From IMG/VR virus record IMGVR_UViG_3300015214_000024, positions 233,787 through 297,786 of that record: a DNA stretch of 64,000 nucleotides. The stretch is one strand, 5' to 3'. The notes below the pieces were generated by a model that saw only the letters and a list, made by a program, of their open reading frames with translations, was not told the DNA's origin and searched no databases. The stretch is from a virus (Duplodnaviria; Heunggongvirae; Uroviricota; Caudoviricetes). Shown here one piece after another: positions 26,947-29,793 of the stretch. The translations under genes and the position numbers were made by a program. Position 1 is the first letter of the stretch. Each line of letters opens with the position of its first letter.

Positions 26947-27169
26947 ATTTAGTTTAAAAAATCATCCAACTGAACACGATGCGTATGTTGCTTGGGAATT
27001 AGCTAAGGATTTGTTAGACGAATATCAAATACTATACTATGCTGATGTAATGAATCAAGAAATATTTGTTACAACTGAATTTACCGGAAAGATGGTATTT
27101 TCAAAAGTTTTCAGCATCTCCTTTCAAGACGAAAATGATTTAATGGCATTTCGACTAATCAAGGATTGA
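26930..27169 (+). CDS. Hypothetical protein, C-terminal-motif family
   Basis: Ends FQDENDLMAFRLIKD. Confidence 0.65.
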   Translation: MKPKIKFSLKNHPTEHDAYVAWELAKDLLDEYQILYYADVMNQEIFVTTEFTGKMVFSKVFSISFQDENDLMAFRLIKD

Positions 27170-27170
27170 A

Positions 27171-27404
27171 ATGAGATACGTATCTTTTGATCTATATTCC
27201 CACGGAAGTGAACCAGCAGCCCATATGGCTTTTAGATCAGCTATGAAGTTATTAGACCATTACAGCATACCATATAGTCAAACTATTGAAGACGTTTATT
27301 TCAACGAACCTCCAAATAAACATCGACGAACATATTACACCGTACATAAAATATTTTTTTATAATGAAGAAGATTATTTGGCATATATCCTAATTAAGGA
27401 TTGA
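27171..27404 (+). CDS. Hypothetical protein, C-terminal-motif family
   Basis: Ends FYNEEDYLAYILIKD. Confidence 0.65.
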   Translation: MRYVSFDLYSHGSEPAAHMAFRSAMKLLDHYSIPYSQTIEDVYFNEPPNKHRRTYYTVHKIFFYNEEDYLAYILIKD

Positions 27405-27434
27405 CTTGTGGACTATTAATGCTAATATACCAAG

Positions 27435-27755
27435 ATACCAACTAACCCTTGAAGATGTGGCGGTAAAAGTTACGTACCGCCATTAAGGGGAGGGAGTATA
27501 TTAAACCCAAGTCTGTTCTACATTGATATGAAAATATCAGCGCGCAGGATGGCCAAGGTAGGGAAAGTGAACGGTAATTTAATATTGCCACCCCTTGCAA
27601 AGGGACCGTGGGAGGCGGCGGAATGAGTACCTATAGCGGAGCCGGAAAACTATGCGTAAGTCCGATGGCGTTACAGATGGCAGGCGATTGACACGTCGTA
27701 GGGAAGGGAAAACCTACTGGATTGGTGACAATTCATAAAAAGGGTTAGTTGGTAT
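27435..27755 (+). ncRNA. Large (~320 nt) unidentified structured RNA
   Basis: Perfect 16-bp closing stem ATACCAACTAACCCTT/AAGGGTTAGTTGGTAT; TTGACT promoter at 27401; GNRA-capped hairpins. Confidence 0.75.
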
Positions 27756-27789
27756 AAATATCTTGTAATTTAATCTGCAGGATATTTTT

Positions 27790-28605
27790 ATGCGTCTTTT
27801 TGAATTCACCCAAATTGATGAGTATTTGGACAAAACCCCAGTAAAAAACCAGCAAGATCCAGATTCTGGATTATGGTTGAATGAAAAAGGGGAGACTTGG
27901 AGATCATCAAGCCCATATCTCTATGCTATAAAAAATCCAAGCGGCCGCCCAGGATACGTGGGACAAATCCATATTCCAGCCAGTTTGTATCGTGAACATA
28001 TTCAGGATATGCAACGACGTTGGCCTGATGCCCCATCGTCATTGTTTAGCGATGATCTTAATAAATTGATGCCAATTCTTACACCGGTTTATTCCGATCC
28101 TCGTAAAGCCGCCTGGGTTGCGCAAGAAGTATTGCTGGATACTGGAAATAAAAAAGCCGAAGATATTATCTTAGGATATTTAGATTGGAGATATAGCGGC
28201 AGGCACGATAAAAATGATGCTCACCTTTGGTTTGAATTGTTGAACAATGTCCCATCATTTACTGGCCAACCATTGACTGGTGATGACGCTGATGAATATC
28301 TTGGAGACAAGGAGCAATTAGCTAAAGATCGTGCCGAACGTGAAGCTGCTTTGAAAAAGAAAGTTACATTGGCTAAAAATGCCGGAAATTATGAATCAGA
28401 TAGAAAAAAACAAATTAAACGTGATTTGATGGCTTGGTTCACTCGTATGGGTCCAGCAGTTGCGAAGAAAAAGTTCGGAAAACCATTGACAGGTGAAGAA
28501 CTTTCTGCTAAATTGGACAAAGAAATTGAAGATAAAGGAATTAATTTCTTTTTAACAGGCCCTGGGTCAGTTAAGTTAAAGGATATTGGTTCACTTAAAT
28601 TTTAA
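27790..28605 (+). CDS. Hypothetical late protein (MRLFEF N-terminus)
   Basis: TATAAATA at 27753. Confidence 0.7.
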   Translation: MRLFEFTQIDEYLDKTPVKNQQDPDSGLWLNEKGETWRSSSPYLYAIKNPSGRPGYVGQIHIPASLYREHIQDMQRRWPDAPSSLFSDDLNKLMPILTPVYSDPRKAAWVAQEVLLDTGNKKAEDIILGYLDWRYSGRHDKNDAHLWFELLNNVPSFTGQPLTGDDADEYLGDKEQLAKDRAEREAALKKKVTLAKNAGNYESDRKKQIKRDLMAWFTRMGPAVAKKKFGKPLTGEELSAKLDKEIEDKGINFFLTGPGSVKLKDIGSLKF

Positions 28606-28610
28606 AAATT

Positions 28611-28688
28611 GGGTCGGTGGTGAGAATGGATTAGTCCGTCACGTCGCAACCGTGAAGAATGCAGGTTCGAGTCCTGCCCGATCCTCCA
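28611..28688 (+). tRNA. tRNA with GCA (Cys) anticodon, C33 and a G3-U70 pair
   Basis: GGGTCGG/CCGATCC-T-CCA; TCACG-TCGCAAC-CGTGA; canonical T arm. Confidence 0.75.
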
Positions 28689-28848
28689 ATAAGGTTGGCG
28701 AGGCTACGCCGTAGACCGGCAACCCTTAAATATCTGGCCGGTCGACCAATAGCATTTTATGGTATTGCTAGTAGGATCAGATGTTGCCTTATTTTATAAG
28801 GATAAATAATGTATGAAAAAAGGTCCATACGATTTATTTTAACTAATT

Positions 28849-28920
28849 GCCTCGGTGGCAGAGTGGCTTATGCGCTTGGCTGCAACCCAAGTTACGTCGG
28901 TTCAATTCCGGCCCGGGGCT
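28849..28920 (+). tRNA. tRNA-Cys(GCA)
   Basis: GCCTCGG/CCGGGGC-T; CTTGG-CTGCAAC-CCAAG. Confidence 0.9.
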
Positions 28921-28924
28921 CAAA

Positions 28925-29180
28925 TACTCAAGTGATCATTTTCGGATCACGGATCATCGCCGATGACTTGAACCACCTACCAATCCTTATTAATAGGGGC
29001 AACTGTGTAGAAGTTATGCGATATCTGGATAGTCTCCTGCGTGGATGCAGCCTGAAGTAGGGAGATGAAGGCAAGCAGATTATCATTAATTTGCCCAAGT
29101 TCCGGTTGCAGAGGGTGTGGACCCACAGAGAGGTGAAATTCTTTTAGGGGGCGAGCTTGAGCGTCCCCCTATTCTCTTTT
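28925..29180 (+). ncRNA. Putative structured RNA ending in an intrinsic terminator
   Basis: GC-rich, no credible ORF, multiple hairpins; TAGGGGGCG...CGTCCCCCTA followed by T-rich tract. Confidence 0.45.
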
Positions 29181-29193
29181 AAAGAAAGACTAA

Positions 29194-29793
29194 ATGAGAC
29201 CTATTCCTGTTTCGCGTCGCCGCGCACTTTTCAATGCATCACCAAATCAATTAATTCGTGTCTATTCACGTCAACATAAAGACGCCTGGTCTAAAGCTCA
29301 AGATATTGGCTATTTTACTGGGGATCACGGAATCTTAGATATTGACGAAGAAACCGGAATTGATTTCACTTATCATAAGCCTTATGATTGGATGAAAGAC
29401 CAGATGGCTAAAGTCATCCCTGATTTCTCAGGAGAACGCCCAGTTTGGGCGTATTTGAAACGGCCTTTACATAAAGGATGGTGGAAGCTTCGACCAGATT
29501 TTATTCAATTTACAGCATTGGTGCCAAGAAAGCGTATTCTTTTTTCAGATTATGAGCTTTGGCACCATCCGTTAAATAATTGGCCTATTTTTGAAACTGA
29601 ACAAGAAGATGATGAGTGGTGGGACAAAAAGCCGAGACCTGATCCATCATACACTTGGCACAAGTGTTTGGATATAAGTCAGGAACAAAATTACAAAAAT
29701 AGCTATTGTGGATATACTGATCTAATCCAAGGCTGTATTGATCGTCTGTATGTTGATGAAATCGTTTCTATCAAATATAATAAATTGACTTAA
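29194..29793 (+). CDS. DUF3841-like protein
   Basis: YDWMKDQM...PVWA...ILFSDYELWHHPLN...IQG. Confidence 0.75.
   Translation: MRPIPVSRRRALFNASPNQLIRVYSRQHKDAWSKAQDIGYFTGDHGILDIDEETGIDFTYHKPYDWMKDQMAKVIPDFSGERPVWAYLKRPLHKGWWKLRPDFIQFTALVPRKRILFSDYELWHHPLNNWPIFETEQEDDEWWDKKPRPDPSYTWHKCLDISQEQNYKNSYCGYTDLIQGCIDRLYVDEIVSIKYNKLT

What the first reader, a model, noticed from the sequence alone, without database searches (positions are those of the whole stretch)
27435..27755. ~320-nt independently transcribed structured RNA closed by a perfect 16-bp stem
Seen: a promoter (TTGACT...GCTAAT) lies immediately upstream. There is a 16-bp terminal helix and internal hairpins TGGCGGTA/TACCGCCA, TGATAT-GAAA-ATATCA, CCCTT-GCAA-AGGG and GTAGG/CCTAC. 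GC content is well above the surroundings and there is no credible ORF. I cannot match it to RNase P (no GAGGAAAGUCC P4 strand), tmRNA, 6S or SRP. A late promoter motif overlaps its 3' end. Candidate novel large phage ncRNA or ribozyme.
Basis: seen in the sequence. Interest (0 to 1): 0.72.

Follow-up and report, generated by a model that had tools for sequence, protein, structure and literature searches.

The report
Orphan structured RNA gene in giant phage
A 455-kb phage carries a gene for a roughly 320-base non-coding RNA whose two ends are locked together by a 16-base-pair helix; natural variants keep its hairpins paired, it matches no known RNA family, and its job is unknown.

Summary
At 27435-27755 a perfect 16-bp helix joins the two ends of a G+C-richer, ORF-free stretch behind a sigma-70-type promoter.

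Near-identical phages from other studies give the best evidence. In one haplotype, 8 of 10 substitutions lie in pairs of the fold predicted beforehand, and none breaks a pair. Two pairs changed on both sides and four became G-U, which pairs only on the + strand. The start codons of both small ORFs are lost.

I read it as a real + strand non-coding RNA gene. No Rfam family matches, and it is not RNase P RNA, tmRNA, a Y RNA, GOLLD or ROOL.

Cautions:
- Without the closing helix, the interior folds no better than shuffled sequence.
- No distant homologue was found, but a control RNA was not found either, so that negative is weak.
- Expression is not shown.

No terminator follows. A separate hairpin hides the next gene's ribosome site, and a late promoter sits in its 5' arm, as in T4 gene e. 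A distant phage has the same design.

Likely an early stable RNA cut from a read-through transcript. The first-stage scan had flagged this same stretch once more, with no follow-up.

The parts
27401..27428 (+). Sigma-70-type promoter. The -35 hexamer TTGACT is at 27401-27406, followed by a 16-nt spacer. TG is at 27420-27421 and the -10 hexamer TAATAT at 27423-27428. The predicted start is about 27435.
   Evidence: The consensus scan scores it 9 of 12 with TG. In the relative X5, four spacer bases and one base after the -10 change. The -35 and the TG stay, and the one change inside the -10 moves it towards consensus. The start site is inferred, not measured.
27435..27450 (+). 5' strand of the 16-bp end-to-end helix.
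   Evidence: The mean pair probability is 0.97.
27457..27483 (+). Hairpin with a 9-bp stem and a 9-nt loop.
   Evidence: In X5 and X7, two pairs changed on both sides and two became G-U. None is broken.
27484..27536 (+). Variable 5' region. It includes the hairpin 27524-27539.
   Evidence: The 27536 A>G change keeps a U-G pair. The 27530 G>T change alters the GAAA loop and destroys the ATG of the 32-aa ORF. X7 has 27498 A>G and X5 a 3-nt deletion at 27499. An alternative long helix 27484-27499/27582-27597 has pair probability 0.5-0.7.
27537..27694 (+). Conserved purine-rich core, the presumed working part. Its fold is not settled.
   Evidence: The X7 contig has 1 substitution in these 158 bases, at 27600. 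It has 9 in the 80 bases before them. The predicted local hairpins are 27573-27589 and 27592-27604.
27698..27717 (+). Possible 5-bp hairpin with a 10-nt purine loop.
   Evidence: It is present in the sequence and in the interior-only fold, but not in the full-length MFE. No variant bears on it.
27718..27735 (+). Hairpin with a 7-bp stem and a GUGA loop.
   Evidence: The pair probability is 0.95. In X4 a 2-nt deletion plus six substitutions remodel its top. By my hand re-pairing a 6-bp hairpin with a 4-nt loop remains. The position-by-position tally ignores the deletion and scores one pair as broken.
27740..27755 (+). 3' strand of the 16-bp end-to-end helix.
   Evidence: The 27740 A>G change in X4 keeps a U-G pair.
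27753..27760 (+). T4-type late promoter box TATAAATA for the next gene.
   Evidence: The same box stands just upstream of the homologous ORF in L012 and L013. The count in the window is not above chance: 9 against 7.6 expected.
27752..27793 (+). Hairpin that pairs the promoter-box region with the Shine-Dalgarno sequence (27779-27782) and the start codon (27790-27792) of the next gene. It can form only in transcripts that start upstream.
   Evidence: Energy is -13.9 kcal/mol, z -5.93, and 0 of 200 shuffles fold as well. A transcript starting at 27767 has no such fold (z 0.12). L012 has the same design with other letters: -19.6 kcal/mol, z -5.69.
27790..28605 (+). Late gene of unknown function (271 aa), downstream of the RNA.
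   Evidence: There is no Pfam, PHROG, NCBIfam, PDB or Atlas match.

Best explanation
The stretch 27435-27755 is a gene for a non-coding RNA of about 320 nt, read from the + strand.

How I think it works:
1. Host RNA polymerase starts at a sigma-70-type promoter (27401-27428), within a base or two of the first base of a 16-bp helix that pairs the RNA's two ends.
2. No terminator follows. Early transcription runs on into the next gene and probably into the two tRNA-Cys genes.
3. That read-through RNA cannot express the next gene, because a separate hairpin (27752-27793) buries its ribosome-binding site and start codon.
4. A late promoter inside the hairpin's 5' arm later gives an mRNA free of the hairpin. 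This is the T4 gene e / I-TevI design.
5. The RNA is therefore most likely cut out of an early polycistronic transcript and kept as a stable RNA, like the tRNAs beside it. The end-to-end helix would serve as the cutting or protecting device.
6. The substitution-poor, purine-rich core (27537-27694) is the working part. Most likely it binds a protein or RNA of the translation and RNA-handling machinery in which this genome region is rich.

Shown: the helix, the pair-preserving variation, the strand, the lack of coding, the lack of any family match, and the downstream hairpin design.

Inferred: the start site, the read-through, the processing, the stability and the partner.
For: Sequence features:
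- The helix and hairpins are real.
- Only 3 perfect inverted repeats of 16 bp or more, spaced 50-600 bases, occur in the 455-kb genome.

Variation in relatives, measured against the fold predicted beforehand:
- The X7 contig has 10 substitutions over 27457-27694. Eight lie in predicted pairs and none breaks a pair.
- Two pairs changed on both sides and four became G-U.
- With 10 random substitutions, no pair is broken in 0.24% of 200,000 trials. No trial had 8 or more in pairs with none broken.
- All five one-sided changes in pairs (27481, 27482, 27536, 27600, 27740) give G-U on the + strand. On the - strand they would be C-A mismatches.
- The same changes stand in contigs from two different studies: X5 (groundwater DNA) and X7 (root RNA library).

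Coding is excluded:
- 27530 G>T removes the ATG of the 32-aa ORF.
- 27600 A>G removes the TTG of the 52-aa antisense ORF.

Transcription signals:
- The promoter hexamers are kept in X5 while the spacer changes at 4 places.
- No + strand terminator-like site occurs before 29147.
- The downstream hairpin gives z -5.93. The same design in L012, whose ORF is only 35% identical, gives z -5.69.
- The T4 precedent is described in passages of PMC3014915, section 29.

Setting: tRNA genes lie at 28611 and 28849 and aminoacyl-tRNA synthetase genes lie in the window.
Against: - The interior without the closing helix folds no better than shuffles (z -1.08, 30 of 200). An elaborate structure is therefore not supported by energy.
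- The variation comes from only two haplotypes, X5/X7 (nearly the same) and X4. It comes from single contigs of depth 2-7.5, which the tool warns may carry errors. It touches only the peripheral hairpins and the closing helix. The fold of the core has no support.
- 21 further differences were not shown by the tool, so my tally is incomplete.
- No homologue beyond these near relatives was found.
- Transcription is not shown. RNA-library contigs cover 27457-27694 (X7) and 27685-28129 (X4), but the tool states that such contigs do not prove a transcript.
- Sigma-70-like sites in 27000-29200 are not more numerous than chance (10 against 6.2 +/- 2.4). TATAAATA is not over-represented in the window.
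- No phage RNase III gene was found, so any cut in the helix would depend on the unknown host.
Confidence: 0.6

Rival explanations
1. It is a cis-acting leader. The stretch is the long 5' untranslated region of an early transcript for the next gene and the tRNA-Cys genes. It acts in cis as a sensor, a stabiliser or a processing platform, and is not a free RNA.
For: No terminator separates it from the next gene. An X4 RNA-library contig bridges 27685-28129. The promoter would drive the whole unit.
Against: The next gene's ribosome site and start codon are buried in any transcript that starts upstream. The gene has its own late promoter, so the leader would lead a message that is kept silent. 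The hairpin that does this is separate from the 16-bp helix apart from a 4-base overlap. The homologous gene in L012/L013 has the same hairpin but tRNA genes, not this RNA, upstream. The two tRNA-Cys genes have a better promoter-like site of their own at 28486-28514, scoring 10 of 12.
Confidence: 0.12
2. It is a mobile or foreign DNA piece. On this reading it is a miniature inverted-repeat element or another recently inserted fragment, the 16-bp repeats are terminal inverted repeats, and it has no RNA function.
For: The perfect 16-bp terminal inverted repeats enclose about 290 bp whose interior is not unusually foldable. The outer TA on each side could be read as a TA target duplication. G+C differs from the surroundings. 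No homologue was found in distant relatives.
Against: - There is a single copy in the 455-kb genome by BLAST, covariance model and nhmmer.
- No copy was found in 50,697 phage records, 72,556 plasmids or 5,426 E. coli genomes.
- The end of the element was not found in 185,579 species genomes by exact 20-mer.
- The 16-mer alone hits 15 IMG/VR contigs, once each and never as an inverted pair, with no further likeness.
- Selfish DNA gives no reason for two double compensatory changes and + strand-only G-U changes in internal hairpins.
- TA is its own complement, so the 'duplication' cannot be told apart from the repeat.
Confidence: 0.08
3. It is a catalytic RNA: a reduced RNase P-like or otherwise new ribozyme that serves the phage's large tRNA set.
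For: It sits in a tRNA and aminoacyl-tRNA-synthetase island. Its ends are paired as in RNase P RNA helix P1. It has short stretches that, from my memory of the E. coli RNA, resemble conserved RNase P regions. Its core is poor in substitutions.
Against: No RNase P model matches at E<=10 in 601 bases. RF00010 finds nothing in the whole genome at E<=10, while the same search rings in 11 of 14 control genomes, including type B and archaeal ones. I could not build the P4 pairing by hand, and two hairpins stand where RNase P RNA goes straight from P4 to P2/P1. There is no rnpA gene in the phage. No small self-cleaving ribozyme family matches.
Confidence: 0.07
4. It is an oversized Y RNA, bound through its end-to-end helix by the phage's own Ro60 (TROVE) protein.
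For: The phage encodes a TROVE-domain protein. Y RNAs are defined by a long helix made of their two ends (passages of PMC4201824).
Against: Characterised Y RNAs are 80-130 nt, carry a conserved motif in the 5' strand of the helix, and lie within 4 kb of the Ro60 gene on the same strand. This RNA is 321 nt, its helix is perfect and lacks that motif, and it lies about 86 kb from the TROVE gene. No Y_RNA or YrlA match was found.
Confidence: 0.05

Closest known systems
GOLLD and ROOL RNAs (large ornate RNAs of phages and prophages)
   Same: They are encoded by phages, often next to tRNA islands. They are large, non-coding and of unknown function (passages of PMC12286853). This RNA is also phage-encoded, lies within 900 bases of tRNA genes and is of unknown function.
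   Different: There is no match to either Rfam model. The size is about 320 nt, whereas many GOLLD RNAs exceed 800 nt. No elaborate covariation-supported fold exists, and the interior gives z -1.08. It is known only from one narrow lineage.
Stable RNAs C and D of the phage T4 tRNA gene cluster (recalled from my own knowledge; no call)
   Same: They are small stable RNAs of unknown function, encoded among a T4-type phage's tRNA genes and released by processing of a shared transcript.
   Different: As I recall they are about 120-140 nt and lack a long end-to-end helix. I could not compare sequences, so no relationship is claimed.
Bacterial and phage Y RNAs (YrlA)
   Same: The 5' and 3' ends pair into a long helix, and the phage has a Ro60 gene.
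   Different: Size, helix motif, distance from the Ro60 gene and Rfam match all fail.
T4 gene e and I-TevI translational block (applies to the 3' flank, not to the RNA itself)
   Same: A hairpin hides the ribosome site in transcripts from upstream promoters. A TATAAATA late promoter in its 5' arm gives a translatable late mRNA (PMC3014915 section 29).
   Different: Here the upstream transcript is that of a non-coding RNA gene, and the gene controlled has no known function.
Leader-trailer processing helices of rRNA precursors (RNase III sites; established knowledge, no call)
   Same: A long helix made of the flanks of a stable RNA brings its two ends together inside a longer transcript.
   Different: At 16 bp the helix is short for such a site. 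Cleavage is untested, no phage RNase III was found and the host is unknown.

Membership tests
RNase P RNA (bacterial types A and B, archaeal) | Match to the family covariance model. | tested here: not met
   There is no RNase P family at E<=10 in 27300-27900. RF00010 gives 0 matches at E<=10 in the whole genome, while the control rings in 11 of 14 genomes.
RNase P RNA (bacterial types A and B, archaeal) | A P4 pseudoknot between conserved regions near the 5' and 3' ends, with the 3' strand running directly into P2/P1. | tested here: not met
   Read by hand, with the consensus recalled from memory. No complementary partner was found, and two hairpins (27698-27735) lie directly before the closing helix.
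tmRNA | A tRNA-like end (acceptor stem, T arm, CCA) and a tag reading frame. | tested here: not met
   ARAGORN finds none in the window. There is no Rfam match.
Y RNA / YrlA | A long helix formed by the 5' and 3' ends. | tested here: met
   The 16-bp helix.
Y RNA / YrlA | Length of 80-130 nt, with the conserved Ro60-binding motif in the 5' strand of the helix. | tested here: not met
   The RNA is 321 nt and the motif quoted in PMC4201824 is absent from 27435-27456.
Y RNA / YrlA | Encoded within 4 kb of the Ro60 gene on the same strand. | tested here: not met
   The TROVE gene is at G000:174838-175542 and the RNA at G000:261221-261541.
GOLLD / ROOL | Match to the Rfam model. | tested here: not met
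   Searches give no match.
GOLLD / ROOL | Phage or prophage origin, often near tRNA islands. | tested here: met
   The source is a virus record of 455 kb. tRNA genes lie at 28611 and 28849.
Group I intron | Match to the intron model, and interruption of a gene. | tested here: not met
   There is no Rfam match. The downstream ORF starts with an N-terminus that is invariant in all 6 aligned homologues, so it is not a 3' exon. A promoter lies directly upstream.
Miniature inverted-repeat transposable element | Terminal inverted repeats. | tested here: met
   A 16-bp perfect repeat.
Miniature inverted-repeat transposable element | Several dispersed copies. | tested here: not met
   There is one copy in the genome and none in the collections searched. 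The host genome is unknown and was not searched.
Miniature inverted-repeat transposable element | Target-site duplication. | tested here: inconclusive
   TA flanks a 13-bp core repeat on both sides. TA is self-complementary, so it cannot be told apart from the repeat.
T4 gene e type translational block (3' flank) | A hairpin with the late promoter in its 5' arm and the ribosome site and start codon in its 3' arm, absent from the late transcript. | tested here: met
   in two phages whose ORFs are 35% identical. The late start site is inferred from the T4 rule.

The most novel reading that the evidence does not exclude
This is the first seen member of a new class of phage RNA, expressed early from a host-type promoter in a giant phage's translation island. 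Its substitution-poor, purine-rich core is the RNA part of an unknown ribonucleoprotein, or a decoy for a host RNA-binding or defence protein, or is even catalytic. The long end-to-end helix would be a general packaging and processing device that this phage uses for several of its many unusual RNAs.
Probability: 0.2. Interest if true: 0.8.

Novelty: new variant of a known kind. Interest (0 to 1): 0.55.

Why it matters
Giant phages carry far more RNA genes than their annotation shows. The large phage RNAs known so far (GOLLD, ROOL) still have no function.

A further large RNA would add a tractable case, because it has:
- its own early promoter;
- ends locked by a helix;
- hairpins kept paired in natural variants;
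- a place in an island of tRNA and synthetase genes.

At 320 nt it is short enough for probing, pull-downs and cryo-EM.

The flank also shows that the T4 trick of hiding a late gene's ribosome site in early read-through RNA is used far outside the T-even phages, here downstream of RNA genes. The practical limits are that the host is unknown and the family is so far confined to one narrow lineage.

Tried and rejected
Known families:
- Rfam at gathering score over the window, and at E<=10 over 601 bases, gave nothing relevant.
- ARAGORN found nothing in the stretch.
- RF00010 over the whole genome found nothing, while the controls rang.
- I pursued by eye a remembered likeness to conserved RNase P regions and dropped it. 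No P4 pairing could be made, and blastn against E. coli genomes, which hold rnpB, found nothing at E<=10.

Homologues by DNA:
- blastn against phages, plasmids and E. coli found nothing.
- Exact core patterns of 18, 23 and 25 bases, and a 20-base end pattern, were not found in IMG/VR or in species genomes.
- The 16-mer alone gave 15 single hits in IMG/VR with no further likeness.

Homologues through neighbours:
- The downstream ORF has no relative in IMG/VR, as a single protein or as an alignment.
- It has two relatives in JGI metagenomes at 35% identity (L012, L013). There the upstream space holds tRNA genes and an unrelated 139-nt element.
- My impression of shared motifs in the same order was not above chance. 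The alignment score was 51.5 against 49.1 +/- 5.2, and 152 of 500 shuffles did as well. Model R1 finds only bare stems there.
- Eight giant-phage contigs that share a thioesterase at 70-79% identity show almost no shared gene order. Of 11 window proteins, only 2 were found near the match.
- Those eight gave no match by nhmmer on the loci.
- BLAST on the whole records gave 2 weak hits. One I checked and it lies in coding sequence. I did not inspect the other (G004, 15 bases, E 0.49), which is at chance level.
- Model R1 found 0 matches in 5 whole records and nothing meaningful in the 8 loci.
- An 18-mer with 3 mismatches gave 1 hit, in coding sequence. The reversed control also gave 1.
- nhmmer --max on the whole G002 and G004 found nothing.
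- These negatives are weak. G002 and G004 have 46-47% G+C against 39% here.
- A scan of G002 and G004 for long closing repeats gave no obvious counterpart.

Sequencing-run coverage: the X3 run does not cover 27464-27841. I draw nothing from that gap.

Partner proteins: the neighbours have no Pfam, PHROG, NCBIfam, PDB or Atlas match that helps. The phage has no rnpA, RNase III or RtcB gene by Pfam search.

Coding: there is no frame, even with TAG read as sense.

A possible weak terminator (the hairpin 27752-27793 followed by a run of five U after 3-4 bases) was considered and given little weight. L012 has the hairpin without the U run.

Literature: three full-text searches found no paper describing such an RNA. 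I saw only the listings and the starts of the abstracts. I read passages only of PMC4201824, PMC12286853 and PMC3014915. Their supplementary tables, such as the list of phage YrlA RNAs, were not seen.

Full report
WHAT IS THERE

The window is part of a 455,147-bp virus record. It is rich in aminoacyl-tRNA synthetase and tRNA genes.

- 27435-27450 and 27740-27755 form a perfect 16-bp helix.
- The 16-mer occurs only there, once on each strand, against 0.04 expected.
- Only three perfect inverted repeats of 16 bp or more, spaced 50-600 bases, exist in the whole genome. I estimate about 0.06 by chance.
- The four internal hairpins exist.
- G+C is 47.0% against 40.1% in the flanks.
- The longest ORFs are 52 and 32 aa. 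Reading TAG as sense opens nothing credible.

IS IT MORE THAN A LONG INVERTED REPEAT?

Folding energy alone does not say so.

- The full stretch gives z -4.09 on the + strand and -3.53 on the - strand.
- The interior without the helix gives z -1.08 (30 of 200 shuffles as good) on the + strand and -0.43 on the - strand.

The decisive evidence is natural variation. One sequencing-run search listed 24 runs. Two are probably the source sample. I laid four of the others. They hold phages 93-99% like this one, from groundwater (X5, DNA), roots (X7, RNA library), straw (X4, RNA library) and the subsurface (X3).

The X7 contig covers 27457-27694 with exactly 10 substitutions, all of them listed. I set them against the minimum-energy fold, which was computed before I saw any variant.

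- Eight substitutions lie in pairs and none breaks a pair.
- In hairpin 27457-27483, two adjacent pairs changed on both sides and two became G-U.
- One pair in hairpin 27524-27539 and one in hairpin 27592-27604 became U-G.
- With 10 random substitutions, no pair is broken in 0.24% of 200,000 trials. No trial had eight or more in pairs with none broken.
- X5 shows the same changes in an independent study.

X4 has a U-G change in the closing helix (27740). It also has a remodelled hairpin 27718-27735, with a 2-nt deletion and six substitutions. By my hand re-pairing this keeps a 6-bp stem and a 4-nt loop. The automatic tally ignores the deletion and scores one pair as broken.

All five one-sided changes give G-U on the + strand and would be C-A on the - strand. 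The structure therefore belongs to the + strand.

Two of the changes destroy the start codons of the only small ORFs (27530 and 27600).

In X7 the region 27537-27694 has 1 substitution in 158 bases, against 9 in the 80 bases before it. The core is thus conserved while the 5' hairpins drift with compensation.

Limits of this evidence:
- There are only two haplotypes.
- Each rests on single low-depth contigs.
- 21 further differences were not shown by the tool.
- Nothing supports any particular fold of the core.

TRANSCRIPTION SIGNALS

TTGACT (27401-27406), a 16-nt spacer, TG and TAATAT (27423-27428) form a 9-of-12 promoter-like site. It would start the RNA at about 27435, the first base of the helix.

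Such sites are not more common here than chance (10 against 6.2 +/- 2.4). However, in X5 the -35 and the TG are untouched, the single change in the -10 moves it towards consensus, and four spacer bases differ.

No terminator-like site follows on the + strand before 29147. RNA-library contigs cover the interior (X7) and bridge 27685-28129 (X4). The tool states that this does not prove a transcript.

THE 3' FLANK

The late-promoter box TATAAATA (27753-27760) overlaps the last three bases of the helix.

- 27752-27793 folds into a hairpin of -13.9 kcal/mol (z -5.93, 0 of 200 shuffles).
- Its 5' arm is the promoter box. Its 3' arm is the Shine-Dalgarno sequence and start codon of the next gene.
- An RNA that starts at 27767, where a T4-type late transcript would start, has no such fold.

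In L012 the homologous gene is only 35% identical. There, different letters build the same hairpin (-19.6 kcal/mol, z -5.69).

This is the design described for T4 gene e and I-TevI (PMC3014915, section 29, passages). Transcripts from upstream promoters are kept untranslated, and late transcripts are translated.

It implies that upstream transcription does run into this gene. In L012 that transcription comes from tRNA genes. Here it would come from the RNA gene.

WHAT IT IS NOT

- RNase P RNA. No model matches. RF00010 finds nothing in the genome while ringing in 11 of 14 controls. No P4 pairing can be made, and the phage has no rnpA.
- tmRNA.
- Y RNA. The phage has a Ro60 gene, but size, helix motif, distance (86 kb) and the Rfam match all fail against the criteria quoted in PMC4201824.
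- GOLLD or ROOL.
- Group I intron. There is no match, and the downstream gene has a complete, invariant N-terminus.
- A multi-copy mobile element. The genome holds a single copy. None was found in phage, plasmid or E. coli collections, nor by exact end pattern in 185,579 species genomes. The 16-mer alone hits 15 IMG/VR contigs, once each and without further likeness.

HOW FAR IT REACHES

Beyond the near-identical phages I found no homologue.

- Eight giant-phage contigs share a thioesterase at 70-79% identity. They gave nothing by nhmmer, BLAST, covariance model or pattern.
- Whole-genome nhmmer on two of them also gave nothing.
- These phages share almost no gene order with this one and have 46-47% G+C.
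- A control RNA from this genome was not found in them either.

The negative therefore says little.

BEST READING

This is an early-expressed gene for a stable non-coding RNA of a family not yet described.

- It is transcribed by host polymerase.
- It is not terminated, and is released from a read-through transcript like the neighbouring tRNAs.
- The 16-bp helix holds and perhaps marks its ends.
- A conserved purine-rich core is the working part.

Its partner and function are unknown. I favour a protein- or RNA-binding role in the phage's RNA and translation programme. That step is inference from the setting only.

Earlier notes of this scan list several other unusual RNAs in this genome, some with long closing helices. 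My own repeat scan found a tRNA whose acceptor stem is prolonged by a perfect 17-bp helix. Long end-to-end helices may therefore be a habit of this phage's RNA genes.

VERDICT

The feature is real and is a new RNA family within a known kind (large phage RNAs beside tRNA genes). It is of moderate interest, held back by the narrow distribution, the unknown host and the lack of any clue to function.

Noticed in passing
window 27752-27793; L012 2673-2713: A hairpin pairs the late-promoter box with the Shine-Dalgarno sequence and start codon of the 271-aa gene. Different letters build the same hairpin in a phage whose gene is only 35% identical. This is the T4 gene e type of translational block, far outside the T-even phages.
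   Followed up: partly
G000:C1:192304-192401 (outside the window): A complete tRNA cloverleaf has its acceptor stem prolonged by a perfect 17-bp leader-trailer helix. It is one of 8 perfect inverted repeats of 14 bp or more, spaced 50-600 bases, in the genome, where about 1 is expected by chance.
   Followed up: no
G000:C1:174838-175542 (outside the window): A 526-aa open frame has a TROVE (Ro60) domain, so the phage has its own Ro60 protein.
   Followed up: no
L012 2534-2672 (and L013 1489-1627): A 139-nt ORF-free element closed by a stem of about 10 bp lies between the last tRNA gene and the late promoter of the homologous gene. This is the same position as the RNA studied here. Folding gives z -2.66. 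Its sequence is not alike above chance.
   Followed up: partly
window 28486-28514: The best sigma-70-like site of the region (TTGACA, 17 nt, TAAATT, with TG; 10 of 12) lies inside the 3' end of the 271-aa gene, just upstream of tRNA-Cys at 28611.
   Followed up: no
window 28611-28688 and 28849-28921: Two tRNA-Cys(GCA) genes lie 160 bases apart. The first scores much lower (40.7 against 58 bits) and has its anticodon at position 36. In X3 this first gene carries several substitutions and indels.
   Followed up: no
window 27790-28605: The 271-aa protein has only 5 relatives among 5.8 billion clusters. All start with the same six residues, and all share a lysine-rich motif near the C-terminus. 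It has no domain, PDB or Atlas match.
   Followed up: partly
G000:C1:32071-32167 and 119198-119287 (outside the window): Two further perfect inverted repeats, of 16 and 15 bp, enclose 60-65 bases of A+T-rich sequence. Their nature was not examined.
   Followed up: no
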